Positions 29,618-59,445 of a DNA stretch of 64,000 bases are shown piece by piece. Where the stretch lies: the NCBI GenBank assembly GCA_018865545.1, contig GCA_018865545.1_3633.1; one strand, written 5' to 3'. How positions within the stretch are numbered: the first letter of the stretch is position 1; each line of letters opens with the position of its first letter. The DNA comes from a phage. The notes under the pieces are model-generated. The model did no database searches. It saw only the letters and a program-made list of their open reading frames with translations, and was not told the DNA's origin. A program made the translations under genes and the position numbers.

Positions 29618-29647
29618 AAAACAACAAAAAGGGGCAAAAGCCCCTTC
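29618..29647 (-). terminator. Rho-independent terminator candidate (minus strand)
   Basis: aaggggc-aaaa-gcccctt hairpin; on minus strand followed by tttttgtt, directly after the tape-measure stop. Confidence 0.5.
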
Positions 29648-29650
29648 AAA

Positions 29651-30771
29651 TTATTGAGGGACAGCAAGAATAAGATTAATGTTATCCATATTAGCTGTCT
29701 CTATTTGCTGATCAATCATATTCCGTAATTCTCCAGCATCTATTTTAATTGTTATTTCACCACTGACAGGCTCGGTAGGAATAACCATAGGAGCTACAAT
29801 TTGACCCGCAGTAGATCCGCCCGGCATCAAATTATGGGATTGAAGATAGTTGGCTTTATCCTGCATATGCCCAGCCCAAAGCGATGTCCACCAACTACTT
29901 AACATCCCTCCGGTAACAGCCATTAAGTCACCACCACCAAATGAATAAGCATTTCCAAGATCTTGTTTTTTAGCGTTCTTTTCACTATCGTTGGAATTTA
30001 CGTAGTCGTATCCCATAAGGGCAGCAGCAACGTAGGGATTTCGTATAGACCACCCTAGCAGCTTACCAAAAACCCCACTTCGTTTCCCACCACCTTTCCT
30101 ATCCCACGGTCCATTACCACCGCTATTACCTCCCCCAGATTTTGGTACGTCCGGCCCACCAAAAATTTCTTTAAGAATTTTTAATGTTCCCGTTATTCCA
30201 GCAATTTTAGCCAAGATTCTGAATACTCTAACCAAGGAAGCTGCGAAGAATAGAGCACCGAGACCCCAACCTACCCAGTTAGTCGCTTTTTGGAATGTCT
30301 CACTTTTCTTTATCCATTGTGGGATATACATGTTTAATTCTGCATTTATAAAAATGCAGACATTAGATATCGTATGTGCGATATCCATAAAGCCCTTTAT
30401 GAATCCAGAAGTAAATTGTCCAACTTTCTCAGCTAACGGTCCTTTAGCATCCAACATGTGGGACAAATCATTAAACGTCTTAGTTAATTCATCCCCAAAT
30501 CCACTTTCAAATATCTTATTTTGAAAGTTCATCCATGTTTGTTGTAAACGCTGCATAGCAACACGGTTGCTTTGTTGTGCCTTGGTAAGTGCACCACCTT
30601 TTCTTGCGGCCTCGGCATAATACTTAGCGACCAAAGGAAGAATTTTTGAAGCCTTTAGCTCCCCATTCTTCATCATATCCATTAATTTTGCAATGTCTAT
30701 AGATGAATCATTGAATGCTTCTTGTGTGGCTTTAAGGAATACATCAAGGGAACCAGGGATGCCCTCGGCTA
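29651..30771 (-). CDS. Tail tape measure protein, exon 2
   Basis: Frame stays open upstream of the ORF-track Met to 30771: AEGIPGSLDVFLKATQEAF...MDMMKNGELKASKILPLV; hydrophobic and Gly-rich segments typical of tape measure C-terminal regions. Confidence 0.55.
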
Positions 30772-31601
30772 CTTATTGTCCCCTCAGTTCGCTACACTGA
30801 GGCGGTGTGCTAAAACACCCGCCACATGTTTCCATGTGGAACAGACTATATCTTCCTCTGATTTTACAGAGGCCAACCATTTCGGAGCGGCTTCGCCCCT
30901 ACTCTCCTACACTCATCGGAGATAGTCGTTGAGCACATAACTTAAAGATTTTTTAATAAACGTCGCCAAGCATTTTTATGTTTTATCCTGTGGATAGTTG
31001 ATCTTGTTACACCAAACTCATTCATTAAAGATGTTGTATCCTCAAAACGCCTGTGGTAAATCCTAATAACTTGATCTTCTGTTAATTTGCAATTAGGATT
31101 TCTTTTTCCATCTACGGAGTTTAGACCTTTTGAGAAAGCATGTTTTTGGTTCTGCGACCTAGTAACATACTCCAGATTATCTTTGTGGTTGTTGGCCTTA
31201 TTACCATCTTTATGGTTAACTTCCATTTTTGGATGTGGCGGTTCACCAATGAATGTTAATGCGACTATCCTGTGTACAAGATACAATACACACTTTCCGT
31301 CTACCCTAAAGTAAACTCTTTTATATCCATTGTGTATTGTTTGCTCAGTTAGTTTCTTCCATGTACCTCTTTTTGTTGAAAAGATTGCACCATCTTCTCG
31401 ACAAAAGTACCCGTTATGTCCAGGCACGGGTCTAATCTCTAAGTTACTTCGCTGCGGATTGTCCATTGTTACATCTCCAAACTTTTTACTATACCTGAGA
31501 TAGTTATTCTCAGCCATTATTATGTTACCATAATAATTTAGTATTTGGTAGCTTTAGGAGTTCCCCGCAATTAGATTGGTTTTACAACAGCTAGTATGTC
31601 A
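30772..31601 (-). mobile_element. Group I intron in tape measure gene, carrying an HNH endonuclease ORF
   Basis: On minus strand: exon 1 ends ...CAGU (31602), intron ends in G (30772); P AAUUGCGGGGA (revcomp of 31562-31575), Q AAUCCGCAGCGAAG (revcomp of 31447-31460), R GCUCAACGACUAUCUCC (30915-30930), S AAGAUAUAGUCUG (30838-30852); splice gives ...IMAEELKQQL-AEGIPGSLDVF... Confidence 0.6.
30942..31517 (-). CDS. HNH homing endonuclease (HNH_3/NUMOD-type), intron-encoded
   Basis: 191 aa; LVHRIVALTFIGEPPHPKMEVNHKDGNKANNHKDNLEYV core and C-terminal HTH-like GVTRSTIHRI; annotated N-terminus overlaps intron Q element so the true start may be internal. Confidence 0.75.
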   Translation of the reverse strand: MAENNYLRYSKKFGDVTMDNPQRSNLEIRPVPGHNGYFCREDGAIFSTKRGTWKKLTEQTIHNGYKRVYFRVDGKCVLYLVHRIVALTFIGEPPHPKMEVNHKDGNKANNHKDNLEYVTRSQNQKHAFSKGLNSVDGKRNPNCKLTEDQVIRIYHRRFEDTTSLMNEFGVTRSTIHRIKHKNAWRRLLKNL

Positions 31602-32901
31602 ACTGTTGTTTTAATTCTTCAGCCATGATCTGACCTTTACCCATCATTTGTTGGATAGCGGTAATACCACGCTGGAATTTTACAGGATCAACCTGAAGTG
31701 CAGTAGCATATTCTGAGAAACCTTTGAACAGTTCGTCATTTTGCGCCTTGCTCAAAACACCTTTGGCAGATATGGACATTTGGGTATAACCTTGGGCGGC
31801 GGTTTTTAAATCCAAACCCAATCTGTAAGATTGCTCCCGAACAAACTGTATTCTTTTCGCTGCTTCTTCTGAGTCATCAGAAACCATTAACATGGTAGCT
31901 TCCATGCCTTGAAAGAATTGTCCTGTTTTCACAACACTTGCGGCAGCATTAAAAGCTCCGTATGCAGCAGAAACACTAATTAATGTGCTACGAAGGTTTT
32001 TCAATCCTTGATCAAGAGATAGTGTATTTGCCTTAGCTTTGCGGAGTCCTGTTTCCATTGCTGCCAATTCAGCACGGAAATTAGAAGCTCTCATAGTCTG
32101 GCTTTGCATAAATCTCTTTTCCAGATCATCATAACCTTTAATTTTAGACCTGAAATCATCACCATACTTAGCACGAAGTCTTACAGCAGCATTAGCAATT
32201 GTTGATTGTTTTGCAGCCTTTATCCTTTCTGCTCTTAACGCTTCTCTTTCTTTCTTCTTATTAGCATCTTTTTCTGCCTTAATCTCATCCGCTGTTTTTT
32301 CTTTCGGAATAGATTTATGATAGCGTTCCATAGCAGAGTTCTGGGCAGCCACAAGACTTGGATCGTGACGACTATTAGGATCCCCAACAATACCAGAGGC
32401 AGACCCTGAAGACTTTCTTGCTGCAAGTTCTTGCTGCAATCTTGCTTGACGGGCAGCAGATATTTCTGGATTTGTTCCATATCCAGAACCTGTTTTTTCC
32501 ATCTGCTTCAACTTTGATTTTAATGCATTATATTCTTTTTGTTCTTCAGGTGTTCTTCTGTTTGTTAGTCTGGCTACTGCTTGCTTTCTTCTCGCGCTCT
32601 CAACTTTGGCTATTTGTTCACGAGCACGAGCTTCCTTTTTTGCCATTGCAATAGCATGTGCCGTAGATTTTGCTTGCTCTGCACGTTCAGTTTGGTGTAA
32701 TCTTTTAGCTACAAGACGAGCCTCTTGCGCAGAACGTTTATAAATTGCTGCCGGATTACTTTTATTAGAAGTGAAAGCTCTGTTAGTCTTTTCCCATTCC
32801 TTCTTCAGGGATTTTATAGCTTTCATTGCACGACCGTAACTGGTGCGATCTACAGACCACTCGACAGCATTTACGGTTTTAGTTACTATGATATTCGCCA
32901 T
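31602..32901 (-). CDS. Tail tape measure protein, exon 1
   Basis: Long coiled-coil, Ala/Lys/Glu-rich N-terminal part then ...GITAIQQMMGKGQIMAEELKQQL, typical of tape measure proteins; in-frame stop follows the proposed 5' splice site. Confidence 0.6.
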
Positions 32902-32952
32902 AGATTTTCCTCAATAAAAAAGCCAGGTTCCGAGAAGGAACCTGGCTTGAGA

Positions 32953-47477: not shown

Positions 47478-48263
47478 TTATATTCTTTTATACAAGGTAG
47501 GAGCTACAATTTTTGGAATAACAACAGGTTTGACTATTTCTTCTTTTTCAAGATAATTTATCCCAGAAGAAATGGCGTCGACCCAATCGTCTTTTCTTGT
47601 CGTAGTACTCCTTTCCCCATTGAACTTTTCAAGCTCTGTCATAAGGGCTTCATAAGTTTTAGGATCAAAACTATCACGAACTATTCTCACCATACCTGCT
47701 TGAGCAAGTTTTGCAAACGGTGTGAATCGTGTTAATTTTGATTTATTGCTTGGTGTAGGATCTTTTTCTACTGTAAACCCTTCCGCTATTAATTCACGGG
47801 AGCTTGTTAAAAATTCACTTATTCCTGCTTGTCCTGGGTCAACACTGAAAATTATAGTGACATCATCACCATCAAAATAAGCCTGTTTCTTAATGATAAC
47901 ATCACGTTCCCCAGCTTTTTTACAGAATCTTCCCTGCGTTTGAGTCGAATATCTACCATCATCAAAAAATTCAGGACAATAATCACCAGACAAGTAGTAA
48001 AAGCCATCATTGTCTTTACTTACCTTAACAGATGCTGTAAAGTCAGGATATCTGTTTCCAGATGTTCTTTCTGTACCTGCTTTATCATACGGGCGAACAG
48101 ATACAACACCGAGAGGTAAGCAGGGAACCTCTTTTAAATAAGATCTCTGGAAATAGTTTGCCCCTTCAGGTCTTGCGTTCCAGTTCCCATGCAACAACTG
48201 GGCTTTTTCTACCTCTGGAAGACCTTCAAGGAATGCTAGATAATCTGGGTTATTCTCCAGCAT
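47478..48263 (-). CDS. terL: Terminase large subunit, last exon (nuclease domain); true 5' edge a few codons upstream
   Basis: VTIIFSVDPGQAG and RKDDWVDAISSGINYL resemble RNase H-like nuclease motifs of large terminases; in-frame stop about 27 nt upstream of first Met marks the limit of the open frame. Confidence 0.65.
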   Translation of the reverse strand: MLENNPDYLAFLEGLPEVEKAQLLHGNWNARPEGANYFQRSYLKEVPCLPLGVVSVRPYDKAGTERTSGNRYPDFTASVKVSKDNDGFYYLSGDYCPEFFDDGRYSTQTQGRFCKKAGERDVIIKKQAYFDGDDVTIIFSVDPGQAGISEFLTSSRELIAEGFTVEKDPTPSNKSKLTRFTPFAKLAQAGMVRIVRDSFDPKTYEALMTELEKFNGERSTTTRKDDWVDAISSGINYLEKEEIVKPVVIPKIVAPTLYKRI

Positions 48264-49250
48264 GGGAGGATTATCGAATCCTTGTATTCAAGGTTGGACG
48301 CAACGCCAACCCCCGCACCACTACGTGCTGCTGCATGTCACCATGCAGAGTAGACTATATCACCACCCACACATAATGGGTGCTTCGCTTTTCGAACGCC
48401 ATTAGCTTGCGATCTACTCCCTTGCGGGATAGTCGTTGAACTACATTACCATTCATAGTTGTTTGAGATATAGATGTAAGTTTTTCTATCTTTTATTCTT
48501 CTAACAAGATTAAAACTAACACCCCATTTTTTAGATATCTTATTAATGCTTAGGATACCGTCTCTCAGATCTTCACATATCCCTATAACTTTGGATTCAC
48601 TAATTCTGTTGGAAGAAGGAACCATCCTGAAATTAAACTCTTTAGAAATGTCTGGGTAGACTCTCCCAGCTTTGATACTACTAACCACAGTCTGCCCAAT
48701 ACCAAACATCTCACTGATATCCTTTACTCTAGCACCCTGCTCAAGTAATCTGCATATCTCAAGGGCAGTGTTATCATCAAGAGGCCTGTAACTGTTTACA
48801 TAAGACTTCTTAAGCCCTATTTCATGTGCGTGATGTGTGTTTTCCTTTGCAGTTGTCCACTCAAGATTCCACGCTGCGTTATTAAGTTTGTTTCCATCTA
48901 AATGGTTCACTTGAGTTTTTGTATCAGGGCTATCATTCTCGACAAAAGCAAAAGCAATAACCCTATGGACAAGAACTTGAAACTTTTTACCATCCTCACA
49001 CAACGTTAACATTGCATAGCCAGTTTTCTTATGGACATTAGGATGTAAAAATTTGTGGGAATACAAACTATAAATTCTTCCATCATACGTCGCACAATAA
49101 TGGGAATACCCTAAAAATCCTAAATTTTTCATCTCAAACATTCTCCCTACTACAGTTTCGGAAAAGTAATTATAGCTGCTGATTGCCCTTATACAAAGGG
49201 TTTCCCAGCAATTAACGAAGTTATTCGACATGCATTACTGCATGAAGCCA
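48264..49250 (-). mobile_element. Group I intron-like insertion in terminase gene with HNH ORF (5' boundary unresolved)
   Basis: R GUUCAACGACUAUCCC (revcomp of 48426-48441) and S GAUAUAGUCUACUC (48335-48350) on minus strand; HNH ORF upstream of R; 3' segment repeated at 49606-49650. Confidence 0.5.
48446..49231 (-). CDS. HNH homing endonuclease (HNH_3/NUMOD-type), intron-encoded
   Basis: 261 aa; NLGFLGYSHYCATYDGRIYS N-terminus, LVHRVIAFAFVENDSPDTKTQVNHLDGNKLNNAAWNLEW core, HTH-like GIGQTVVSSIK. Confidence 0.75.
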   Translation of the reverse strand: MSNNFVNCWETLCIRAISSYNYFSETVVGRMFEMKNLGFLGYSHYCATYDGRIYSLYSHKFLHPNVHKKTGYAMLTLCEDGKKFQVLVHRVIAFAFVENDSPDTKTQVNHLDGNKLNNAAWNLEWTTAKENTHHAHEIGLKKSYVNSYRPLDDNTALEICRLLEQGARVKDISEMFGIGQTVVSSIKAGRVYPDISKEFNFRMVPSSNRISESKVIGICEDLRDGILSINKISKKWGVSFNLVRRIKDRKTYIYISNNYEW

Positions 49251-49572
49251 CTATTCTTTTAATGGTTGCGGAAATGAAGGAAAATGAAAGTGGTTTAGGC
49301 TTTCTTTTCTCATCCTTGCCATCCCAATACTTTTCAATTAATTCTTGCTCTGATTCACCCCAGATAAACTCCCCGTCACGTCTTATAAACCATCTAATCA
49401 CCCCGTCACGTTCAGGTATAGGATACCCCTCATCGTCTAAATACCAAGAAATCAACTCCTTAATCTTATGATCTGGATCAGGGTTACAAGAGATAACCAT
49501 CCTACTCGGGTATTTAGAGTTTGAACGTAGACGAGATATCAGATAATCTATCTGTGACCATGTGAATTGTGT
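49189..49572 (-). CDS. terL: Terminase large subunit, middle exon (ATPase domain C-terminal part); 3' limit is the ORF stop, real 5' splice site lies somewhere upstream of it
   Basis: Reading frame opens at 49572 after intron terminal G (49573): TQFTWSQIDYLISRLRSNSKYPSRMVISCNPDP, the post-Walker B R-x-R and (S/T)xNP region of large terminases. Confidence 0.5.
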   Translation of the reverse strand, partial: TQFTWSQIDYLISRLRSNSKYPSRMVISCNPDPDHKIKELISWYLDDEGYPIPERDGVIRWFIRRDGEFIWGESEQELIEKYWDGKDEKRKPKPLSFSFISATIKRIVASCSNACRITSLIAGKPFV

Positions 49573-49922
49573 CGTTTTTGTTCAGATAAGATCGCTACTC
49601 TTATCCCGCACCACTACGTGCTGCTGCATGTCACCATGCAGATCAGACTATATCTTGTGTGTTATTACACACCCCCCCTGTTTCGGCGGTTGATAATCAA
49701 CCGGAGGTTTCCCTCACCGCTTGGCCCTAACGCCCGTAAGCGATAGTCGTTGAACGTTCATCCCGTAGGGATGCTTCGCTGCGGATTGTCTAAACATTCA
49801 CACTGTTACTATACTCAACGTCATTACCGTTGACCATAAATATGTTACCATACCTACTTAGTGGTGATATGTATAAAGAGTTACCCGTCAATTAAAGGGG
49901 TTTATAGAGAGCACACTGTTCT
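49573..49922 (-). mobile_element. ORF-less group I intron in terminase gene
   Basis: Minus-strand P AAUUGACGGGUAAC (revcomp of 49880-49893), Q AAUCCGCAGCGAAG (49774-49787), R GUUCAACGACUAUCG (49741-49756), S AAGAUAUAGUCUGAUCUG (49636-49650); preceding exon ends in U, intron ends in G. Confidence 0.5.
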
Positions 49923-49955
49923 ACCCTCATCGAAACCTATAAAGGTATATTGCAA
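49923..49955 (-). CDS. terL: Terminase large subunit mini-exon (Walker B region), inferred
   Basis: Minus-strand frame LQYTFIGFDEG, hydrophobic run plus DE = Walker B-like, in frame with exon starting 49572 to give ...FIGFDEG-TQFTWSQIDYL...; bounded by intron-like sequence on both sides. Confidence 0.4.
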
Positions 49956-50194
49956 CTTATTGTCCCCTCAGTTCGCTACACTGAGGCGGTGTGCTAAAAC
50001 ACCCGCCACATGTTTCCATGTGGAACAGACTATATCTTCCATCCTTGGCGTGCCGTTTGGATCACCAATCGCTTGTGATTCTACTCTCCTACACTCATCG
50101 GAGATAGTCGTTACACCCAGAGTTTATATTTCCATATTCTGTGGCACGGTATTTTCCCATAGGGAGTTCCACCGTTATAGGCACGAAGGGCAAG
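49956..50194 (-). mobile_element. Group I intron-like element (3' core only recognisable) between terminase exon 1 and mini-exon; 5' boundary unresolved
   Basis: R (50095-50110) and S (50025-50040) elements; 85 bp at 49956-50040 nearly identical to the 3' end of the tape-measure intron (30772-30856); no P/Q recognised. Confidence 0.4.
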
Positions 50195-51277
50195 CTATTC
50201 ACCCTGATGATCTAATTTGTTATTCTCATACTCCATGTGTCTCCACAACACCTTTGCCCCAGATGGGAAAATTGCTTCCAGAGCTTTCTCCCTGAACTTC
50301 GGCTTCCATTCCTTATCGAGTTGCAAATAAATACTTTTCGCTGTATCAAAAAGTCCACCTGCACCTGTCAATTGAGGTGTTGTCCTACGAAACATTATAC
50401 ATGCTGTCTGCGGGTCATCGACATAAGCAAGCGGCATCAATTGTAGGAGATATGATTTTCCACTATTCCCAGTGACAACCACACAATCTTCCAGTCTGGT
50501 AACAAAGAAACCTGTTTGTGTTACAAAGCAGTATTTAAACCCATCCGTAGGTATAAACTCTTTAAGCTCAACTTTCTCTTTATCGTTTAATGCTCTTAAT
50601 GACCCGCCATTAACGTTTACATTAACAATGTACTCTGAGCCAATCTTCTTCAAAGAAGATTCACAATCGAAGCAGGAAACAACAAACTGGATAAAATCAG
50701 CAGTGGATTTGTTACTGGAAGAATACATACCACCTTGTGCTATAATGGCATCCATGATTACATCAAGTTGATGCCTTGAGCAGTTATAATAGTCCTCTGT
50801 TATCTCACCACACAACACTCGCTCTCTGATTGTTTCATCATCCAAATCCAAACCTGCACCAGAATAATTGAATGTTGTGATAAATTTTCCTTCCCAACCA
50901 CCGCTAGAATTTTTATGTGTCTCCGCAATTTCCGAAAATAATTGCGTTTTTGGTGGGGTATGGTAATCTTCTTTAAACAGGACAGTGTGTTCGTCAGATA
51001 GCTCTTGACAAATGCCATTACCTTCTATTCTTGTAAGTTTTTCGCAAGGGAGTTTAACAAACTCTAAAGGAGGGATAAATTTAGCCTCCCCAGTGGCTTT
51101 ATCATATTGCAGAATGTCCTGCCCTGACCATTCTGATATCTTAATCCAGCCAGATGGTGTCAACACCTCGTGGTCTTTAGACAAACACCCGGCGGCCCCG
51201 CCAATTATTAGAATTTGGGCTTTACTCTCCAAAATCATTTTTTGTTTAGGACTGGCAGGTCCAAATACTTTACTCAA
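50195..51277 (-). CDS. terL: Terminase large subunit, exon 1 (ATPase N-terminus) containing an intein in the Walker A motif
   Basis: 360 aa ORF; N-extein ...ILIIGGAAG, C-extein SGKSYLLQ... join to GGAAGSGKS Walker A; 3' end of ORF probably runs into intron. Confidence 0.7.
   Translation of the reverse strand: MSKVFGPASPKQKMILESKAQILIIGGAAGCLSKDHEVLTPSGWIKISEWSGQDILQYDKATGEAKFIPPLEFVKLPCEKLTRIEGNGICQELSDEHTVLFKEDYHTPPKTQLFSEIAETHKNSSGGWEGKFITTFNYSGAGLDLDDETIRERVLCGEITEDYYNCSRHQLDVIMDAIIAQGGMYSSSNKSTADFIQFVVSCFDCESSLKKIGSEYIVNVNVNGGSLRALNDKEKVELKEFIPTDGFKYCFVTQTGFFVTRLEDCVVVTGNSGKSYLLQLMPLAYVDDPQTACIMFRRTTPQLTGAGGLFDTAKSIYLQLDKEWKPKFREKALEAIFPSGAKVLWRHMEYENNKLDHQGE
50465..51187 (-). other. Intein (about 241 aa) inserted in terminase Walker A P-loop
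   Basis: Starts with Cys (CLSKDHEVLTPSGWIKI, block A-like), ends ...VVVTGN followed by Ser; host Walker A is complete only after excision. Confidence 0.6.
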
Positions 51278-53609: not shown

Positions 53610-53682
53610 TTGCGAGTATTGGAATCGAACCAATCTGGACTGGCTTATGAGACCAGCGAAGTCACCAGACTTCAAACTCGCA
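53610..53682 (-). tRNA. tRNA-Met (anticodon CAU; could also be Ile-lysidine type)
   Basis: Manual fold: acceptor TGCGAGT/ACTCGCA, D stem GAAG/CTTC, anticodon stem CTGGT/GCCAG, loop CTCATAA, T arm ATTGG-TTCGATT-CCAAT. Confidence 0.75.
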
Positions 53683-53686
53683 ATGT

Positions 53687-53917
53687 TCATTTATTACCAA
53701 GAGAAATCCTTCTAGGTGGATGACCAAAATGGATCTCATAAGTGCCATCAAGTCTTCCTTTCTTTGTCCGACAATATTTATCTACTTTCTTGTAGTTCTT
53801 CACTTCTTGAGTAGTATACCTAGAATCGGCAATAAGTAGAATAAGAGGCCACCCAGCACAAAATTTTCTAACTGTCTCTATTTTTTGGATATATGCACTC
53901 TTCAATTTTCTTCGCAT
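53687..53917 (-). CDS. Hypothetical small protein within tRNA cluster
   Basis: 76 aa ORF between tRNA genes. Confidence 0.3.
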   Translation of the reverse strand: MRRKLKSAYIQKIETVRKFCAGWPLILLIADSRYTTQEVKNYKKVDKYCRTKKGRLDGTYEIHFGHPPRRISLGNK

Positions 53918-53935
53918 GATCTATTTCCTGTTTGG

Positions 53936-54008
53936 TGTGACGGACAGGGTTCGAACCTGTGACCACCTAGTCTTCAGCAAGGCACTCTACCAACTGAGTT
54001 ACCGTCAC
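53936..54008 (-). tRNA. tRNA-Phe (GAA)
   Basis: Acceptor GTGACGG/CCGTCAC, D arm ACTC-AGTTGGTA-GAGT, anticodon loop CTGAAGA, T arm ACAGG-TTCGAAC-CCTGT; CCA encoded. Confidence 0.8.
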
Positions 54009-54016
54009 ATGATTGG

Positions 54017-54090
54017 TAGGCGATGAGGGACTCGAACCCCCAAAATTCAGGTTCTAAGCCTGACATGTATACCAATTCCATCAATCGCCC
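54017..54090 (-). tRNA. tRNA with anticodon UAG (Leu by anticodon) but short variable arm, atypical
   Basis: Acceptor GGGCGAT/ATCGCCT (G1-U72), anticodon stem TCAGG/CCTGA, loop CTTAGAA, 5 nt variable region, T arm GGGGG-TTCGAGT-CCCTC; CCA encoded. Confidence 0.5.
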
Positions 54091-54104
54091 ATTTATATCA
54101 ACAG

Positions 54105-54296
54105 TTATGGTTTTCCACGATACACAGAAATAGTTTTCCCATTGGCATTGATAACATAAGCTGTCTGATCCTCAGACAAAAACACTTTTTGGTCAATACC
54201 TGAAATAGCTATAGACTTTTGATGAGCACAATACCCAACAATTTTCCCACAAAAAATTTGTTCATCATTTGGAGATACGACTTTAACTGTTAACAT
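54105..54296 (-). CDS. Hypothetical small protein within tRNA cluster
   Basis: Start moved to internal ATG 54296 because the annotated N-terminus overlaps tRNA-Pro. Confidence 0.3.
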   Translation of the reverse strand: MLTVKVVSPNDEQIFCGKIVGYCAHQKSIAISGIDQKVFLSEDQTAYVINANGKTISVYRGKP

Positions 54297-54341
54297 GGTA
54301 TCCTCTGTACATTTCTGCTTTGATATGTATATGTTTGTTGG

Positions 54342-54416
54342 TCTGTCCGGTTGGATTTGAACCAACGACCTGATCATCCCAAGTGACCCGCGCTACCCAA
54401 GCTGCGCTACGGACAG
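54342..54416 (-). tRNA. tRNA-Pro (UGG)
   Basis: Acceptor CTGTCCG/CGGACAG, D arm GCGC-AGCTTGGGTA-GCGC, anticodon stem GGTCA/TGATC, loop CTTGGGA, T arm GTTGG-TTCAAAT-CCAAC; CCA encoded. Confidence 0.8.
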
Positions 54417-54503
54417 AGAAATGTAGATTTTAATTGTCCCAGAATCTACTAACTGGTATCGCTGGCTAGGTGATATCTGTGACTTGATTAAGTCAAGAAT
54501 TGG

Positions 54504-54591
54504 CGGTTCCTGAAGGATTCGAACCTTCGGTGGGGAGATTCCTCCCAACGGCTTAACAGGCCGTCACCATCGACCACTCGGTCAAAGAACC
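54504..54591 (-). tRNA. Type II (long variable arm) tRNA with anticodon GUU (Asn by anticodon), atypical
   Basis: Acceptor GGTTCTT/AGGAACC, 3 bp D stem with GAGTGGTCGA loop, anticodon stem ACGGC/GCCGT, loop CTGTTAA, variable hairpin GGGAG-GAAT-CTCCC, T arm GAAGG-TTCGAAT-CCTTC, discriminator G, CCA encoded. Confidence 0.5.
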
Positions 54592-54603
54592 AGAATATTT
54601 TGG

Positions 54604-54677
54604 TGGATCTGGTTAGATTCGAACTAACAATCCCTCGATTAAAAGTCGAGTGCCTTAAACCATTTGGCTACAGATCC
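54604..54677 (-). tRNA. tRNA-Lys (UUU)
   Basis: Acceptor GGATCTG/CAGATCC, anticodon stem CTCGA/TCGAG, loop CTTTTAA, T arm GTTAG-TTCGAAT-CTAAC; CCA encoded. Confidence 0.75.
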
Positions 54678-54907
54678 TTTAAATTATCTTTAAAATAGCT
54701 AATTACTCGCACATAATTAGCTATACGCAACAGCCCTCTAGGGAGGGCACACTAATGATAGATTACGATTACATGACCATCATGAGTGTTTGACTTACGC
54801 CAGTAAAGAGCGGACTGCTCTGGGGTATCGGTAAAGTGGTTACCGCCACTTGCCGAAGATTTACTCTGCTAAAGTAAGAATAACAAGCTACATTAAAGAT
54901 AACTTGG

Positions 54908-54993
54908 AGGAGGCTGACAGAATCGAACTGTCACCATATCTCTACAGCGGGACTGGGTTCAAACCAGCTTGTGCACCATGCACCCCAGCCTCC
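54908..54993 (-). tRNA. tRNA-Ser (UGA), type II, atypical D arm
   Basis: Acceptor GGAGGCT/AGCCTCC, anticodon stem GCTGG/CCAGT, loop TTTGAAC, long variable region, T arm GACAG-TTCGATT-CTGTC; D region forms a tight GTGCA/TGCAC hairpin; CCA encoded. Confidence 0.55.
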
Positions 54994-55074
54994 AAAAATT
55001 GCCTCTGCCGAGAATATACACCCAACAAAGACGGCGCTCAGGTCCGAAGAAATCTGAGCCTTGACATACAGTGG

Positions 55075-55165
55075 AGGAAGATGCCAGACTTGAACTGGCA
55101 CACCCATTTCTGGGTTACTATCTCCTTAGCAGGGAGACCCCTTACCAAATTAGGGTTAATCTTCC
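55075..55165 (-). tRNA. tRNA-Ser (GCU), type II
   Basis: Acceptor GGAAGAT/ATCTTCC, anticodon stem TCTCC/GGAGA, loop CTGCTAA, long variable arm, T arm GCCAG-TTCAAGT-CTGGC; CCA encoded. Confidence 0.65.
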
Positions 55166-55189
55166 AATACCTTAGTAATTAAAAACTGG

Positions 55190-55276
55190 CGGAGAAGGAG
55201 AGAATCGAACTCTCAAGCCGTTTTACCAGTCAGCACATTTCCAATGTGTTTTCGTCGCCAATCGATTTGCTTCTCC
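55190..55276 (-). tRNA. tRNA-Ser (GGA)-like, type II, tentative
   Basis: Acceptor GGAGAAG/CTTCTCC, T arm GAGAG-TTCGATT-CTCTC, candidate anticodon loop TTGGAAA with imperfect stem; CCA encoded; D arm not well resolved. Confidence 0.45.
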
Positions 55277-55288
55277 GTTTTAACTTGG

Positions 55289-55361
55289 CAGGGGATGGTT
55301 GATTCGAACAACCGATCACGGGGTCAAAGCCCGTTGCATTAGGCCACTATGCTAATCCCCT
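55289..55361 (-). tRNA. tRNA-Gln (UUG)
   Basis: Acceptor AGGGGAT/ATCCCCT, D arm GCAT-AGTGGCCTA-ATGC, anticodon stem ACGGG/CCCGT, loop CTTTGAC, T arm GGTTG-TTCGAAT-CAACC; CCA encoded. Confidence 0.8.
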
Positions 55362-55365
55362 TTTG

Positions 55366-55444
55366 CACGAGAGTGAGGAATCGAACCTCTTAGTCACTGG
55401 TTTTGGAGGCCAGCCTTCACCCAGTGAAGTTACGCTACTCTCAT
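55366..55444 (-). ncRNA. tRNA-like sequence, unassigned
   Basis: Acceptor-like pairing ATGAGAG/CTCTCGT and T arm GAGG-TTCGATT-CCTC, but central region forms a long CACTGG/CCAGTG helix instead of canonical D and anticodon arms. Confidence 0.3.
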
Positions 55445-55450
55445 TAAAAA

Positions 55451-56008
55451 CTATTTTCGGAAAGGACTTATGAAAAATGCCAACATCACTCTCTCTCTTG
55501 AAAAAGCTCTGTCTTCAGGAACCACACTCTTCAGTTTCCAACCGACATAAATTCGCCAGTAAAATTGTTTTCCAAACAATCTAAAAGACGGGACAAACGC
55601 GAATACACCCCACGCATTGTCATTCCACATCAACAAATAGCCTTGTTGATTATCCTCCACATCAGAGCTTACATGGATGTTTCCTTTCCACTTTGTCACA
55701 GATGTGATTTCACGTCCAAGTGCGTGATAGGAGAAATTGTAGGCTTTATTTCTCCACAACCAAGCAACTCGTTGCAGATAAACACCAAAACTCCCTATCT
55801 TACGAACTTCTGCCCATCTCTCTATGTGTCCTTTATCACCATCTATAGGATTATCATATGTTTCCATCCACCTGAAAATATAAGGTAGATGCCCTGTCTT
55901 CTCATTATAGAACGGAACAACAAAAGGAGCCAGAATAACACAGAGAACCGACATAACTGGGTCAAGAGGTGCTAACAGAATCCACGATAAATATTTCAAG
56001 TATCTCAT
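55451..56008 (-). CDS. Hypothetical membrane protein
   Basis: 185 aa; N-terminal hydrophobic helices (LSWILLAPLDPVMSVLCVILAPFVVPF); Trp-rich. Confidence 0.45.
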   Translation of the reverse strand: MRYLKYLSWILLAPLDPVMSVLCVILAPFVVPFYNEKTGHLPYIFRWMETYDNPIDGDKGHIERWAEVRKIGSFGVYLQRVAWLWRNKAYNFSYHALGREITSVTKWKGNIHVSSDVEDNQQGYLLMWNDNAWGVFAFVPSFRLFGKQFYWRIYVGWKLKSVVPEDRAFSRERVMLAFFISPFRK

Positions 56009-56235
56009 GCAGGATCAAGCCTAGATATAATGTACTGGTTTAAATCTGAATATGGGAAGATACTTTCAAAGATAACCTGTTTAAATCTGAAACCGCACAA
56101 ACCGAAAAGTACCTTCTGACACTCCCCAAAAGAACAATCTTTACCAACTTTTATCACAACCGTATCGGCAACCTGCACACTTTCTATCTCTTTAGGTTCA
56201 TGATGCCGTACTATGATTACTTTAGAAACCATCAT
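56005..56235 (-). CDS. Hypothetical protein
   Basis: 76 aa ORF overlapping downstream gene start by 4 nt. Confidence 0.4.
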   Translation of the reverse strand: MMVSKVIIVRHHEPKEIESVQVADTVVIKVGKDCSFGECQKVLFGLCGFRFKQVIFESIFPYSDLNQYIISRLDPA

Positions 56236-56363
56236 ACTCGTCCGTATTAAAGCCTTCTACTATAGATAGTAGATGTCTAGGGTTGGACCGCAAACTCAAC
56301 CCCATGGAATTTGTTACGGTCTTCAGTTGACCCAAGCGGATTTCATTGACATCTTTTAACTGG

Positions 56364-56435
56364 AGCATCCAGAGGGTATCGAACCCTCGACTACAGCTTG
56401 GAAGGCTGTAGTTTTCCCAATTAAACTATGGATGC
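56364..56435 (-). tRNA. tRNA-Gly (UCC)
   Basis: Acceptor GCATCCA/TGGATGC, D stem GTTT/AAAC, anticodon stem ACAGC/GCTGT, loop CTTCCAA, T arm GAGGG-TTCGATA-CCCTC, discriminator U as expected for Gly; CCA encoded. Confidence 0.8.
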
Positions 56436-56443
56436 ATATTTGG

Positions 56444-56516
56444 TGGGAGTGGTAGGCTCTGCCCCTACGTCCTCTCGATTATCGGTCGAGCGATCTACTA
56501 ACTGATCTACACTCCC
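56444..56516 (-). tRNA. tRNA-Ile (GAU) with unusual T loop
   Basis: Acceptor GGGAGTG/CACTCCC, D arm GATC-AGTTAGTA-GATC, anticodon stem CTCGA/TCGAG, loop CCGATAA, T stem GTAGG/CCTAC but loop GGCAGAG lacks TTC; CCA encoded. Confidence 0.6.
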
Positions 56517-56587
56517 AAACTGTACTGACCCAACAACCACGATTGGAGGGTATCGTCACACATCAAAGCCAGTACAGATTCAGTTGG

Positions 56588-56674
56588 TGTGCCGTGATAG
56601 AGTCGAACTACCCGAGTCCCTTTCGAGACAGGAGATTTACAGTCTCCCCCGCTACCCCTACGGTCTAACGACAC
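56588..56674 (-). tRNA. tRNA-Tyr (GUA), type II
   Basis: Acceptor GTGTCGT/ACGGCAC, anticodon stem GGAGA/TCTCC, loop CTGTAAA, long variable arm, T arm GGTAG-TTCGACT-CTATC; CCA encoded. Confidence 0.65.
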
Positions 56675-56675
56675 A

Positions 56676-57023
56676 TTAACCTTGTTTGAATTGAACAATA
56701 TCCGTCGAGAATGGTTTAGCTGCCTTAATAGGAGCTTTTTCTGAGTTATCTTTTTCGAGTAACTCTTCGTTTTCCTCATCAAAGTAATCAGAAAGCATCT
56801 GCTCACCTTTCTCAATAACATAACGAGCGATATTTTCTCTGATATTGTCTTTTGTATTCACATTCTTCATCAAATCCCTAAGAACCTGATGAGCTTCAGG
56901 AATCATTGCAATCAGATTCGTTTTCAAATCTAGGATATTTTTCTCTAACTGAATTGCATTAGATTCCTCTTTCAGAGGACGACCTTTCCCTCTTCTACGT
57001 TTTGTAAGCTGCTTAGTAGCCAT
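56676..57023 (-). CDS. Hypothetical protein
   Basis: Start moved to internal ATG 57023 (MATKQLTKRRRGKGRP...) because the annotated 5' part overlaps tRNA-Cys. Confidence 0.45.
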   Translation of the reverse strand: MATKQLTKRRRGKGRPLKEESNAIQLEKNILDLKTNLIAMIPEAHQVLRDLMKNVNTKDNIRENIARYVIEKGEQMLSDYFDEENEELLEKDNSEKAPIKAAKPFSTDIVQFKQG

Positions 57024-57111
57024 TTTAAAACCCCACTTAATGATATTATCAAATAAAAACATATCTGTCAAGTGGTATTTTAACATATTTACCAAGAAAT
57101 TGAAAGTTTGG

Positions 57112-57185
57112 AGCACGGTGTCGGACTTGAACCGACATATATCTGTTTTGCAGACAGATCCGTAACCAAATTCCGGCAACCGTGC
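57112..57185 (-). tRNA. tRNA-Cys (GCA)
   Basis: Acceptor GCACGGT/ACCGTGC, anticodon stem TCTGT/ACAGA, loop CTGCAAA, T arm GTCGG-TTCAAGT-CCGAC, discriminator U as expected for Cys; CCA encoded. Confidence 0.8.
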
Positions 57186-57264
57186 AATAAGTACCCCGAG
57201 TAGAGAACCTATAGAGTGGGTCTTACGAGCCGCGCTGACGATTCTCAAGTTGGGGTTAATCTGG

Positions 57265-57338
57265 TCGAGGAGACAGGATTCGAACCTGTGACCTACGGCT
57301 TAGAAGGCCGCTGCTCTATCCAACTGAGCTACACCCCG
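57265..57338 (-). tRNA. tRNA-Arg (UCU)
   Basis: D arm GCTC-AGTTGGATA-GAGC, anticodon stem GCGGC/GCCGT, loop CTTCTAA, T arm ACAGG-TTCGAAT-CCTGT; acceptor has one U-U mismatch; CCA encoded. Confidence 0.7.
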
Positions 57339-57538
57339 AGAATAAGAATGCTTTATAGTGTATGGTTACTCAACCTCACCCCAACTTCCACAGTTGGTGC
57401 TCTACGAGCATGACTACGTTTGAAATCAACGTTGCGCACCGATAGCTTTCTCACGCATTGTATGCCTCATTCCCAACAAATGCTGATCAGGCATTTATAT
57501 CGAATAATATAAGCTAATACACTATAAAACAAACTTGT

Positions 57539-57635
57539 GGCTGGGTGATGGAATCGAACCACCTATGTATTCAACGGCTAGCCCGTCTATTTTCAGGATT
57601 ATAAATCCTCGCCCTTGCCAAAGGGCTTACCCAGC
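57539..57635 (-). ncRNA. tRNA-like sequence with oversized variable region, anticodon uncertain (possibly UAU)
   Basis: Acceptor GCTGGGT/ACCCAGC, perfect D arm GCCC-TTTGGCAA-GGGC, T arm GGTGG-TTCGATT-CCATC, but about 30 nt between anticodon arm and T arm. Confidence 0.35.
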
Positions 57636-57640
57636 ATTGG

Positions 57641-57712
57641 TGCTCGCAGCAGGTTTCGAACCTGCAACCCCCTGCTTACAAGGCAGGTGCTCTACCGTTG
57701 AGCTATACGAGC
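57641..57712 (-). tRNA. tRNA-Thr (UGU)
   Basis: Acceptor GCTCGTA/TGCGAGC, D arm GCTC-AACGGTA-GAGC, anticodon stem CCTGC/GCAGG, loop CTTGTAA, T arm GCAGG-TTCGAAA-CCTGC; CCA encoded. Confidence 0.8.
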
Positions 57713-58077
57713 AATAAGACATTGCTTCCGATTAACAGCCTTGAGGCTTTACAGACCATATCTTGTGAGCCATAACCTGTGCCAAGGATTTCAGATGATA
57801 AACGAAATTTTATCTTTCAAGAATTAACTTTCAAGTTTCATCTTTTACATTTGACCATTGACCTTTATTGTATGAACTTTTACTTAGTGGAAACAACAAG
57901 GCATCTTCGTGTGCCTCGCTGCATCTATGTCCTGTATTATCCTCATACATATACGATACATGGTGGGGAATATTTAACCTCCAATCCCCAGGAGGCAAGA
58001 TGATGTAAACTTCGTTAATCAAAAGCAATGTTTTAAATTTCAAAACAAAGGAACGATAATGATATTATCAGAGCCTT

Positions 58078-58725
58078 TTAGAGAGAGTGCTCAATCTCAA
58101 TTTCTGTCTTAGCGTTTGACTCAGACAACGCAAAATCAACGTTAGACAAGAAATCTTCAATCTCTTCTTCAAGAGAACGAATCTTAGAAGCCAGTTCAAG
58201 AGGATCCACAACCGATGGTGTGTTCATCATTCGAATGGGAGCTTCCACAGTCTTAATCTGCTCTGCATCTGGCGCTTTATCACGTTGGATATATGGCGCT
58301 CTGGCATTTTCAAGTTTATCTTCCAGAGATTTTTCTTCTTTTGCCAGAAGAAGCTGTGCAGAAGCACGCTGTGCACAAAGTTTGTTTAACAACTCTTGTT
58401 TAAAGCAAATCGTCCGTTTGCGTTCGATTGCCTCAGCAACTGTCATAGACACCTTACCAATTTTGACAATTGTCTCAGCATTAGACTTGACAATTTTTGC
58501 CTTCAGTTCATCGCGAACTGCCAAGAGGTCTTGCAGACTTTGATAGTCGTTGATCGCAGATTTCTTAAAATCATCAACAGAGCCGATATAACCAGGAATC
58601 TTACAATTATTCTCAGTTCCTTTTGCAATCTTAATACATTCAAGGTTATAAATACGCTTATTGATCTTATCTTCAATCTTAGAGATAGAAGCAAGTGCAC
58701 GAGTTACGGAAATCTTAGTAGACAT
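58078..58725 (-). CDS. Hypothetical protein
   Basis: 215 aa ORF, predicted coiled-coil segments. Confidence 0.45.
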   Translation of the reverse strand: MSTKISVTRALASISKIEDKINKRIYNLECIKIAKGTENNCKIPGYIGSVDDFKKSAINDYQSLQDLLAVRDELKAKIVKSNAETIVKIGKVSMTVAEAIERKRTICFKQELLNKLCAQRASAQLLLAKEEKSLEDKLENARAPYIQRDKAPDAEQIKTVEAPIRMMNTPSVVDPLELASKIRSLEEEIEDFLSNVDFALSESNAKTEIEIEHSL

Positions 58726-59066
58726 TCAATCTCTCCTATGTAAATTAGCTTTGATAAAGTAACTATACAGAAAAACAAAAACTATGTCAAGAAAAATTTT
58801 AATCTTTTACAGCATCTTTTATAGAATCACAAAGATCTTGGACAAGATCAGATGTCGGTGACAAAATCATCTCGTCTGCTGCTGCTATAGCATCTGATGC
58901 TAAATCAACAAACGGAGTTGTTACCGCAGCAGTCACTTCAACAGCCGTTGTTGTTACATCGCTTGCAATCTTAAGCAAAGATCCTATCATAATCTCAACC
59001 CTCCTGAATGTCCGTGATTCCCTTTGTTTAATGACGCTGGCTCACGGTGGCACTCTCGTCAGTAAA

Positions 59067-59390
59067 TTATTTTTTAGTTTTCTTAACGTTTTCTACAGGA
59101 GTGCTTGTTTTCTGTTTCACTTCTCGTTCACGCTTTGTTTTCCCAGTACGGATACGATAGGAAGCAGAAATCACTTCACCACCAATGACACGAGACACAG
59201 ATTCATAATACATTTCAGTATTACCGTCTTCATCTTTGCGTTTTTTCAGAACTGCTACAGTTTGCGTTTTGCCACCAAGACGCACATCGTGCGGTGCAGA
59301 ATGTGTCTGCGTGGATTTTGATTCAAACTGAAAAGGTTGCTTGATCGCCTCGATAGCTGATACCTTTTTAGCAGACTGTTTCTTAGCCAT
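59067..59390 (-). CDS. Hypothetical basic protein (possible nucleic-acid binding)
   Basis: 107 aa, Lys/Arg-rich N- and C-termini. Confidence 0.4.
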   Translation of the reverse strand: MAKKQSAKKVSAIEAIKQPFQFESKSTQTHSAPHDVRLGGKTQTVAVLKKRKDEDGNTEMYYESVSRVIGGEVISASYRIRTGKTKREREVKQKTSTPVENVKKTKK

Positions 59391-59445
59391 TAAGTTTTCT
59401 CCTCCGAAAACAATAAACCTAGTTTATTTCGTGTGCCACATTTGG

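What the first reader, a model, noticed from the sequence alone, without database searches (positions are those of the whole stretch)
29651..32901. Tape measure gene split by a group I intron with an HNH endonuclease
ORFs 31591-32901 and 29651-30682 are two halves of one tape measure protein. The intervening 830 nt has P, Q, R and S group I elements in canonical order on the minus strand, follows an exonic U and ends in G. Splicing at 31602/30771 gives ...MAEELKQQL-AEGIPGSLDVF..., which restores a continuous frame. Introns in tape measure genes are uncommon, and tail length would depend on correct splicing.
Basis: partly seen in the sequence, partly recalled or inferred. Interest (0 to 1): 0.6.

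Follow-up and report, generated by a model that had tools for sequence, protein, structure and literature searches.

The report
Mobile self-splicing intron in tape-measure gene
The tail tape-measure gene of this Av-05-like coliphage is split by an 830-base group I intron carrying its own HNH homing endonuclease, a well-known kind of selfish element found here in a gene and phage group where I found no earlier report of it.

Summary
The observation and the interpretation both hold. ORFs 31591-32901 and 29651-30682 (minus strand) are the two halves of one tape measure gene. Escherichia phages Av-05 and 24-2-1 carry it uninterrupted, and the window has an exact 830-nt insertion (31601..30772). 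Joining 31602 to 30771 gives a colinear 806-aa protein and restores the full Pfam TMP_3 domain.

The insert has a complete group I core: P1 with a U.G at the splice site, P3-P9, P7.1/P7.2 and a terminal G. Rfam scores it only 32 and 20 bits, below the cut-off of 50, with the endonuclease ORF sitting in the P6a loop. The decisive evidence is three orthologous introns at the same site in metagenomic phages whose tape measure proteins are only 31-39% identical. Across these, 29 of 105 base pairs show compensatory changes.

The ORF is an I-HmuI-like HNH endonuclease of 174 aa under purifying selection. Exon flanks show a co-conversion tract. The 3' 85 nt are an exact copy of a terminase intron in the same genome.

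Tape measure introns are already known in Bacillus cereus-group prophages, so this is a new member of a known kind. Splicing itself is inferred, not shown.

The parts
31602..32901 (-). Tape measure gene, exon 1 (1300 nt; the last base is the first base of a split Leu codon)
   Evidence: ORF. Pfam TMP_3 profile positions 2-115/192. Colinear with the Av-05 and 24-2-1 tape measure proteins.
30772..31601 (-). Group I intron, 830 nt, subgroup IA-like (has P7.1/P7.2, no P2)
   Evidence: Exact insertion relative to the intronless alleles. Rfam Intron_gpI partial hits of 32.3 and 19.8 bits. Covariation in orthologues.
29651..30771 (-). Tape measure gene, exon 2 (1121 nt including the stop). The first 29 full codons (30769..30683) have no start codon upstream, so they can be translated only after splicing.
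   Evidence: An in-frame TAA lies at 30775-30773 just inside the intron.
31584..31609 (-). P1 hairpin: exon ACAACAGU (31609-31602) plus intron UG, paired with the internal guide UAGCUGUUGU (31593-31584). U31602 pairs with G as the U.G wobble. The exon-1 frame stops at UAG 31593-31591.
   Evidence: MFE fold, coordinates. Conserved in orthologues (helix 1).
31574..31579 (-). P3 5' strand CCAAUC. It pairs with GGUUGG at 30878-30873, forming a pseudoknot with P7.
   Evidence: U.G in the window, C-G in the orthologues.
31453..31569 (-). P4-P5 domain: P4 UGCGGG/UCCGCA, P5 UCC/GGA, P5a CUaCCAAA/UUUGGAG, and the P5b and P5c hairpins (31537-31516, 31513-31495)
   Evidence: Rfam hit 2, fold. Compensatory changes in P5b and P5c (helices 6 and 7).
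30942..31466 (-). HNH homing endonuclease gene, 174 aa plus stop. The start AUG lies in the conserved core motif AUGGACAAUCCGCAGC, and a GGAG Shine-Dalgarno at 31478-31475 lies in the P5a 3' strand. The stop lies in the P6a 3' strand. The mechanical ORF extends to 31517.
   Evidence: Pfam HNH_3, 50 bits. Full-length match to I-HmuI 1U3E, E=3.3e-13. Called as 174 aa in independent contigs. pN 0.13-0.22 against pS 0.71-0.90.
30933..31452 (-). P6 (GCG/UGC) and the 13-bp P6a (UAACUUAGAGAUU 31446-31434 with AAUCUUUAAGUUA 30950-30938), which close the loop holding the endonuclease ORF
   Evidence: Fold, coordinates, pair counts (helices 8 and 9).
30844..30927 (-). P7 (GACUAU 30927-30922 with AUAGUC 30849-30844), enclosing P7.1 (30921-30904), P7.2 (30899-30884), P3 3' (30878-30873) and P8 (30872-30855)
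   Evidence: Rfam hit 1, fold. Compensatory changes in P7.1, P7.2 and P8.
30772..30839 (-). P9 (30839-30822, GAAA loop), P9.1 (30821-30803), P9.2 (30802-30782) and the terminal G at 30772
   Evidence: Fold. All 7 P9.2 pairs change on both sides among orthologues (helix 17).
30772..30856 (-). An 85-nt stretch identical to the 3' end of terminase intron 1 of the same window (50204..49956). A second identical 30-nt stretch lies at 30929-30900.
   Evidence: Orthologous tape measure introns are only 72-80% identical over these stretches.
30742..31625 (-). Exon flanks of about 25-30 nt on each side of the intron with clustered substitutions relative to Av-05 (presumed co-conversion tract)
   Evidence: 14 of 60 mismatches near the junction against 38 of 477 further away, Fisher p=7e-4.

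Best explanation
An 830-nt mobile group I intron interrupts the tape measure gene inside its most conserved motif (GKGQIMAEELKQQL|AEGIPG, within the TMP_3 domain).

Splicing (inferred). The late transcript folds into a subgroup IA-type ribozyme. The internal guide GCUGUUGU pairs with the exon end ACAACAGU, placing U31602 in a U.G wobble. Exogenous guanosine attacks after that U, and the freed exon then attacks after the terminal G at 30772. The ligated mRNA encodes one 806-aa tape measure protein.

The endonuclease. The P6a loop carries a 174-aa I-HmuI-like HNH endonuclease. Its first 12 codons are written in the ribozyme core (P5', P4', P6, P6a). Its Shine-Dalgarno sequence lies in the P5a stem, so ribozyme folding and endonuclease translation probably compete (inferred).

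Homing (inferred). In a mixed infection the endonuclease would nick or cut intronless tape measure alleles near the insertion site. Repair from the intron-bearing copy would then copy in the intron together with about 25-30 nt of each exon flank.

Local history. In this genome the 3' third of the ribozyme has since been overwritten by the resident terminase intron.

Shown here: the anatomy, the intronless alleles, covariation, selection on the ORF, and the flank tract. Inferred: splicing in vivo, the cleavage chemistry, and the translational coupling.
For: - Uninterrupted tape measure genes in Av-05 and 24-2-1, with an exact 830-nt insertion in the window.
- All 21 IMG/VR relatives are uninterrupted at this site.
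- The spliced product raises TMP_3 from 43.4 bits (profile 2-115) to 65.6 bits (profile 2-190 of 192).
- The 29 conserved codons after the 3' splice site have no start codon.
- Rfam gives two partial Intron_gpI hits, E=4.6e-6 and 0.027 in a 1.5-kb search.
- The 21-mer AATTGCGGGGAACTCCTAAAG occurs in 9 IMG/VR loci. In 5 of them it lies inside ORF-less introns scoring 57-93 bits.
- Orthologous introns occupy the same site in L035-37, L038 and L039-41. Their spliced tape measure proteins are only 39% and 31% identical to the window's, whereas the endonucleases are 75-81% identical.
- On the alignment of these introns, 96.2% of cells pair and 29 of 105 pairs change on both sides. None of 500 shuffles reaches that, and slid controls give at most 40% paired and at most 4 such pairs.
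- The endonuclease matches I-HmuI (PDB 1U3E) end to end, E=3.3e-13, with pN 0.13-0.22 against pS 0.71-0.90.
- Exon-flank substitutions cluster at the junction, p=7e-4.
- The same split arrangement is seen in two independent sequencing runs, L003 (0 mismatches) and L004 (17 mismatches over 8 kb).
Against: - No single Rfam hit reaches the gathering score (32.3 against 50 bits).
- There is no RNA or protein data, so splicing is inferred.
- P10 is only 3 bp (CUA/UAG).
- P2 is absent.
- The residue aligned with the I-HmuI metal ligand Asp74 (that role is from memory of the 1U3E paper) is Asn here and in the orthologues, so the cleavage chemistry may differ.
- The covariation rests on only four distinct sequences, two of them closely related.
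- The core helices P3-P7 are almost invariant and therefore uninformative.
Confidence: 0.92

Rival explanations
1. A free-standing HNH endonuclease gene has split the tape measure gene without any splicing, as in Aeromonas phage Aeh1 nrdA split by mobE. Two polypeptides (436 aa and 343 aa) would be made and assemble into a functional tape measure.
For: Both halves are open reading frames with their own stop and start codons. Non-splicing HNH insertions in split genes are documented in phages (discussed in PMC7344957).
Against: The insert carries a complete group I core maintained by compensatory changes in other lineages. The 29 conserved codons between the 3' splice site and the first ATG of the C-terminal ORF would be lost, although they belong to the TMP_3 domain and change mostly synonymously. 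The exon-intron boundary has the U.G and the terminal G.
Confidence: 0.04
2. The intron is a decaying, splicing-defective relic, and the tape measure gene in this genome is a pseudogene (a defective phage or an assembly artefact).
For: The Rfam score is below threshold. Related introns do decay: the endonuclease is frameshifted in L039-41. The 3' domain is a chimera with another intron, which could in principle impair folding.
Against: All conserved core nucleotides and helices are intact. The chimeric 3' domain comes from an intron that sits in the essential terminase gene and is also present in 24-2-1, so it is presumably active. The P3 3' strand and P8 between the two copied patches remain those that match this intron's own 5' half. 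The same arrangement occurs in two independent runs with 0 and 17 differences. The endonuclease ORF is intact and under purifying selection.
Confidence: 0.04

Closest known systems
Group I introns TMP-IVS1/2/3 in tape measure genes of Bacillus cereus-group prophages (Tourasse and Kolsto 2008, PMC2504315)
   Same: These are group I introns of subgroups IA1/IA2 inside a phage tape measure gene. They target conserved sites, some carry endonuclease genes, and they show a patchy distribution with intronless alleles.
   Different: The hosts are Gram-positive temperate siphovirus-type prophages with tape measure proteins over 1200 aa, and the insertion sites are different. I made no sequence comparison with them here. 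The present intron is in a virulent-type Vequintavirinae myovirus of E. coli and lies in the TMP_3 motif.
Bacillus phage SPO1 DNA polymerase intron encoding I-HmuI (PDB 1U3E)
   Same: The endonuclease aligns with I-HmuI over its whole length and both are 174 aa. The 5' core of the intron gives BLAST hits in unannotated gaps or hypothetical-protein genes of Bacillus phages of about 147-150 kb. From memory, SPO1-type introns are subgroup IA2 and I-HmuI nicks one strand near the insertion site and drives co-conversion of flanking markers.
   Different: Protein similarity is only distant. The host gene is different. Asn replaces the I-HmuI metal ligand Asp74. Nicking activity was not tested.
Terminase, polymerase and nrd introns with HNH genes in Vequintavirinae (rV5, PMC3606486; Pectobacterium phage CB7, PMC7344957)
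   Same: These are in the same phage subfamily and are HNH-containing introns in essential genes. Splicing was shown by RT-PCR for CB7. The window itself has terminase introns, one of which shares 85 nt exactly with the tape measure intron.
   Different: Neither paper reports an intron in the tape measure gene. No INPHARED record carries this intron, and the best endonuclease match there is 43% identical.
Phage T4 td intron with I-TevI (from memory)
   Same: It is a subgroup IA2 intron with the endonuclease ORF looped out of P6a. There is an in-frame stop just inside the intron, and endonuclease translation is restrained by RNA structure.
   Different: I-TevI is a GIY-YIG enzyme, not HNH. In the present intron the ORF start is fused into the ribozyme core itself.

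Membership tests
Group I intron (Rfam RF00028) | Score at or above the Rfam gathering threshold (50 bits) | tested here: not met
   There is no hit at gathering level. Permissive mode gives 32.3 bits for the 3' half and 19.8 bits for the 5' half. These are two separate partial hits. The roughly 490-nt ORF in P6a and the P5abc extension lie between or within the matched parts. Relatives without an ORF that share the 5' core score 57-93 bits.
Group I intron (Rfam RF00028) | Conserved core helices P3, P4, P6, P7 (P/Q/R/S) in order, with the P3/P7 pseudoknot, P8 and P9 | tested here: met
   All are located. 96.2% of cells pair across four orthologues and 29 pairs change on both sides.
Group I intron (Rfam RF00028) | 5' splice site after a U that forms a U.G wobble with the internal guide sequence in P1; the intron ends in G | tested here: met
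   U31602 pairs with the G at 31591 within a 10-bp P1. The last base is G at 30772. Both features are conserved in the orthologues.
Group I intron (Rfam RF00028) | Precise excision restores the host reading frame | tested here: met
   The 806-aa product is colinear with the intronless homologues, and the TMP_3 domain is restored.
Group I intron (Rfam RF00028) | Guanosine-dependent self-splicing | not testable with these tools
   This needs in vitro transcription and splicing, or RT-PCR.
Subgroup IA (phage-type, IA2-like) | Extra helices P7.1 and P7.2 between P7 and the P3 3' strand (criterion from memory of Michel and Westhof 1990) | tested here: met
   P7.1 lies at 30921-30904 and P7.2 at 30899-30884, both with compensatory changes. 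No P2 is present, so assignment to IA2 in particular is tentative.
HNH homing endonuclease, I-HmuI type (Pfam HNH_3 PF13392) | HNH_3 domain above the Pfam cut-off and homology to a characterised intron endonuclease | tested here: met
   HNH_3 scores 50.0 bits against a cut-off of 24.8. PHROG 59, E=5e-45. 1U3E residues 2-164 align with query residues 10-164, E=3.3e-13.
HNH homing endonuclease, I-HmuI type (Pfam HNH_3 PF13392) | Catalytic His and metal ligands of the HNH motif | tested here: inconclusive
   The His and the distal Asn align (VNHKDGNKANN...N), but the Asp preceding the His in I-HmuI is Asn here and in the orthologues. The residue roles are from memory of the 1U3E paper.
HNH homing endonuclease, I-HmuI type (Pfam HNH_3 PF13392) | Cleaves or nicks the intronless allele near the insertion site | not testable with these tools
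   There is only indirect support: the clustered exon-flank substitutions and spread of the intron among tape measure genes 31-39% identical.
Phage tape measure protein (Pfam TMP_3 PF20155) | Full TMP_3 domain, and gene position between the tail chaperone genes and the distal tail/baseplate genes | tested here: met
   TMP_3 covers profile 2-190 of 192 in the spliced product. Upstream neighbours are Phage_TAC_15 and the tube and sheath genes; the downstream neighbour is Dit_like.
Split gene with a free-standing endonuclease (Aeh1 nrdA/mobE type) | No ribozyme around the endonuclease gene; the two halves are translated separately | tested here: not met
   A complete, covarying ribozyme flanks the ORF. 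The conserved exon-2 codons lack a start codon.

The most novel reading that the evidence does not exclude
The tape measure intron in this genome is a recent hybrid. Its 5' two-thirds (guide sequence, P3-P6, endonuclease, P7.2, P3', P8) descend from the tape-measure-specific intron lineage seen in distant phages. P7/P7.1 and everything from J8/7 to the 3' end are exact copies of the terminase intron already resident in this phage lineage. If this reflects ongoing gene conversion between introns in different genes of one genome, then phage group I introns evolve in concert and swap catalytic modules. That would be a route by which a resident ribozyme could be re-targeted to new genes.
Probability: 0.5. 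Interest if true: 0.55.

Novelty: new member of a known kind. Interest (0 to 1): 0.4.

Why it matters
- **Annotation.** Pipelines call this locus as two proteins plus an HNH endonuclease. NCBI names the identical 191-aa ORF product EHP9877570.1 "HNH endonuclease [Escherichia coli]". Tail-length inferences and genome comparisons for these phages would be wrong unless the intron is recognised.
- **Host range of tape measure introns.** It extends them from Gram-positive prophages to Vequintavirinae-type myoviruses of enterobacteria.
- **A natural homing series.** The data include intronless alleles, alleles with an intact endonuclease, and alleles with a frameshifted endonuclease.
- **A testable case of module exchange.** Two introns in one genome share exact sequence, which can be followed up experimentally.
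- **A possible marker.** The target is the most conserved motif of the TMP_3 domain, so the element may be useful as a marker of genetic exchange among therapeutic-candidate coliphages.

Tried and rejected
- **Rfam at gathering level:** no hit on this intron. Only the permissive scan gave partial hits.
- **Exact-pattern scans** for the guide region GACATACTAGCTGTTGTAAAACCAATC in IMG/VR and in JGI metagenomes found nothing. The orthologues were reached instead through the endonuclease protein.
- **Own-versus-other complementarity test for P3** across ten related introns was not discriminating (mean 6.15 against 4.97). I replaced it with the positional pair count.
- **Cluster members not returned by the homology search** could not be looked up. 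The 191-aa form is not on record as a called gene.
- **The upstream ATG at 31517 as the endonuclease start** was rejected. It lies in the P5b/P5c hairpins and has no ribosome-binding site, gene callers chose 31466 in every independent contig, and homology with I-HmuI begins at residue 10 of the 174-aa form.
- **Promoter scan** found nothing above chance inside the intron (6 sites found against 8.6 expected).
- **The terminase N-terminal piece** gave no Pfam hit, and its candidate intein matched a solved intein only at E=0.79.
Full report
**What is at the locus**

On the minus strand the window has a 436-aa ORF (31591..32901), a 191-aa ORF (30942..31517) and a 343-aa ORF (29651..30682).
- The first ORF matches Pfam TMP_3, but only profile positions 2-115 of 192.
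- The middle ORF matches HNH_3.
- The neighbours are a tail assembly chaperone upstream and a Dit-like protein downstream.
- The region is 93-95% identical to Escherichia phages Av-05, 24-2-1, 18-1-2, 19-1-2 and TH18. The Av-05 and 24-2-1 records are classified Vequintavirinae, Avunavirus.
- Those matches cover only 60-67% of the query.

**The insertion is exact and joining restores the gene**

Av-05 and 24-2-1 each annotate one uninterrupted tape measure gene, of 793 and 794 codons.
- A DNA alignment shows that the window differs by a single 830-nt insertion, 31601..30772.
- Joining 31602 to 30771 gives 2421 nt. The 806-aa product is colinear with both relatives across the junction: GKGQIMAEELKQQL|AEGIPGSLDVF against GKGQIMAEELKSQLSEGIPGSLNVF.
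- The spliced protein matches TMP_3 over positions 2-190 of 192 at 65.6 bits. The N-terminal half alone scores 43.4 bits.
- The 29 codons between the 3' splice site and the first ATG of the downstream ORF are conserved. They have no start codon, and an in-frame TAA sits just inside the intron. They can be translated only from a spliced message.

**The insert is a group I intron**

Rfam at gathering level does not call it. A permissive scan of 1.5 kb gives two Intron_gpI matches: 32.3 bits (E=4.6e-6) over P7-P9 and 19.8 bits (E=0.027) over P3-P6. The endonuclease ORF lies between the two matched parts.

Folding of the separate domains, plus inspection, gives the following elements:
- P1: ACAACAGU.UG with UAGCUGUUGU, with the U.G wobble at U31602.
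- P3: CCAAUC with GGUUGG.
- P4: UGCGGG with UCCGCA.
- P5, with an extension of P5a, P5b and P5c.
- P6, and a 13-bp P6a that closes the ORF loop.
- P7: GACUAU with AUAGUC.
- P7.1, P7.2, P8, P9 (GAAA loop), P9.1 and P9.2.
- A terminal G at 30772.

There is no P2, and P10 is only 3 bp. P7.1 and P7.2 are, from memory of Michel and Westhof, the mark of subgroup IA, to which the T4, SPO1 and Twort introns belong.

**Independent support from related introns**

- The 21-mer AATTGCGGGGAACTCCTAAAG (J3/4-P4-P5) occurs exactly in nine IMG/VR contigs. In five of them it lies inside ORF-less introns that pass the Rfam cut-off at 57-93 bits.
- An alignment with these shows the tape measure intron has every conserved core block.
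- Each family member has its own complementary P3 strands at the same positions.

**Orthologous introns and covariation**

The closest relatives of the endonuclease in the large protein collection are 81% (P0002) and 75% (P0003) identical.
- Both lie in the same arrangement: TMP_3 N-half, then HNH, then C-half, then Dit-like, on metagenomic contigs of up to 134.5 kb.
- A third set (P0004) has the endonuclease broken by a frameshift.
- The introns sit at the identical site...AAACAACAGT|TGACATAC...G|TAGC....
- The spliced tape measure proteins of L035 and L038 are open (809 and 777 aa) but only 39% and 31% identical to the window's. The intron is therefore far better conserved than its host gene, as expected for an element that spreads by homing into a conserved motif.

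On an alignment of the four distinct introns with the ORF interior removed, my 105-pair structure performs as follows:
- 96.2% of cells are paired.
- 29 pairs change on both sides, and none of 500 shuffles reaches this.
- Sliding the partners by 1-3 columns gives at most 40% paired and at most 4 such pairs.
- The compensatory changes lie in P5b, P5c, P7.1, P7.2, P8, P9 and P9.2, where all seven pairs change.
- P3, P4, P5, P5a, P6 and P7 are nearly invariant.

The caveat is that there are only four sequences, two of them close to each other.

**The endonuclease**

From the ATG at 31466 the protein is 174 aa. It aligns with I-HmuI (PDB 1U3E, also 174 aa), residues 10-164 to 2-164, at E=3.3e-13, and with PHROG 59 at E=5e-45.
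- Gene callers chose this start in all independent contigs.
- The AUG is part of the conserved core motif AUGGACAAUCCGCAGC, which is also present in ORF-less relatives.
- The first 12 codons (MDNPQRSNLEIR) are encoded by P5', P4', P6 and P6a, and are invariant in the orthologues.
- A GGAG lies 8 nt upstream of the AUG and is the 3' strand of P5a.
- The stop codon lies in the 3' strand of P6a.

I infer that folding of the ribozyme hides the ribosome-binding site. This was not tested.

Between the three lineages pN is 0.13-0.22 and pS is 0.71-0.90, so the protein is under purifying selection. The residue aligned with Asp74 of I-HmuI is Asn in all of them.

**Signs of homing**

- None of the 21 related tape measure loci in IMG/VR is interrupted at this site.
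- No INPHARED record contains the intron, and the best endonuclease match there is 43% identical.
- Against Av-05 the window is 92% identical over the surrounding 477 nt but only 77% identical within 30 nt either side of the junction. That is 14 of 60 mismatches against 38 of 477, Fisher p=7e-4.
- The upstream flank is identical to that of the other intron-bearing alleles and is what pairs with the guide sequence. The Av-05 sequence (UCACAACU) would not pair.

This is the pattern expected from co-conversion during homing from a divergent donor.

**A hybrid ribozyme**

- Intron positions 673-702 and 746-830 are exact copies of terminase intron 1 of the same window (50204..49956). The orthologous tape measure introns are only 72-80% identical over those stretches.
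- Phage 24-2-1 lacks the tape measure intron but has the same terminase intron with 2-3 differences. The shared sequence is therefore native to the terminase intron.
- The segment between the two patches (P7.2, P3', P8) remains specific to the tape measure intron and complementary to its own 5' half.
- Two Logan contigs carrying the locus both end at intron position 701, the end of the first repeat. That is what an assembler does at a repeat.

**Provenance and literature**

The 191-aa ORF product is identical to NCBI EHP9877570.1, "HNH endonuclease [Escherichia coli]", on an 81-kb contig. The endonuclease clusters hold 76, 29 and 7 member sequences.

- Group I introns in tape measure genes are described for Bacillus cereus-group prophages at three sites, subgroups IA1/IA2 (PMC2504315).
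- In Vequintavirinae, introns are reported in the terminase gene of rV5 (PMC3606486).
- In CB7 they are reported in the terminase, polymerase, ribonucleotide reductase and nicotinamide phosphoribosyl transferase genes. RT-PCR showed splicing for most of them (PMC7344957). No tape measure intron is reported.
- A full-text search for "group I intron" together with "tape measure" listed no paper whose title or abstract points to an enterobacterial case. I opened only a few of the 38 hits.

**Verdict**

This is a new member of a known kind. The interesting details are the ORF start fused into the ribozyme core, the exchange of modules with a terminase intron, and a natural series of intronless, intact-endonuclease and decayed-endonuclease alleles. 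Splicing, cleavage specificity and translational coupling remain inferences.

Noticed in passing
window 47478-51277 (-): The large terminase gene is in at least four pieces. Rfam finds one group I intron above threshold (49624-49950, 66.3 bits) and three sub-threshold signals (50006-50256, 49064-49271, 48331-48522). By hand, intron 1 is 50204..49956 and intron 2 is about 49922..49573. A third intron carries a 261-aa HNH gene (48446..49231). The exons match Terminase_6N and Terminase_6C.
   Followed up: partly
window 49923-49955 (-): Between terminase introns 1 and 2 lies a 33-nt micro-exon encoding LQYTFIGFDEG (the Walker B motif). Phage 24-2-1 has intron 1 but not intron 2, and there the sequence runs on uninterrupted as ...GFDEGTQFTWSQ.
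   Followed up: partly
window about 50465-51187 (-): The terminase Walker A motif is split (IIGGAAG | C...241 aa...VVVTGN | SGKSYLL). This looks like a mini-intein in the P-loop. Support is weak: no Pfam hit, and only an E=0.79 match to a solved intein.
   Followed up: partly
window 53900-59520 (-): There is an array of 14 tRNA genes above the Rfam threshold, plus a sub-threshold tRNA-like hit at 53612-53681.
   Followed up: no
window 32920-32948 (-) and 29628-29647 (-): Strong terminator-like hairpins lie immediately upstream of the tape measure start codon (12-bp stem followed by a T run) and immediately after its stop codon. There are 10 such sites in the region against 2.9 expected.
   Followed up: no
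L039 1-560, L040 and L041 1-550: In three independent metagenome assemblies (one labelled pig gut), the orthologous tape measure intron has an endonuclease gene broken by a frameshift while the ribozyme core is intact. This is the decay stage of the homing cycle.
   Followed up: partly
L003 and L004, end of locus (window 30901): Two Logan contigs from different runs carry the same split tape measure gene. Both stop at intron position 701, the end of the 30-nt stretch shared with terminase intron 1, which suggests a repeat-induced assembly break.
   Followed up: yes
window 30942-31517 (-): The 191-aa ORF product is identical to NCBI protein EHP9877570.1, named "HNH endonuclease [Escherichia coli]", on an 81-kb contig. 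The window therefore probably comes from a phage contig inside an E. coli isolate assembly. It is not in the INPHARED collection of August 2025.
   Followed up: partly
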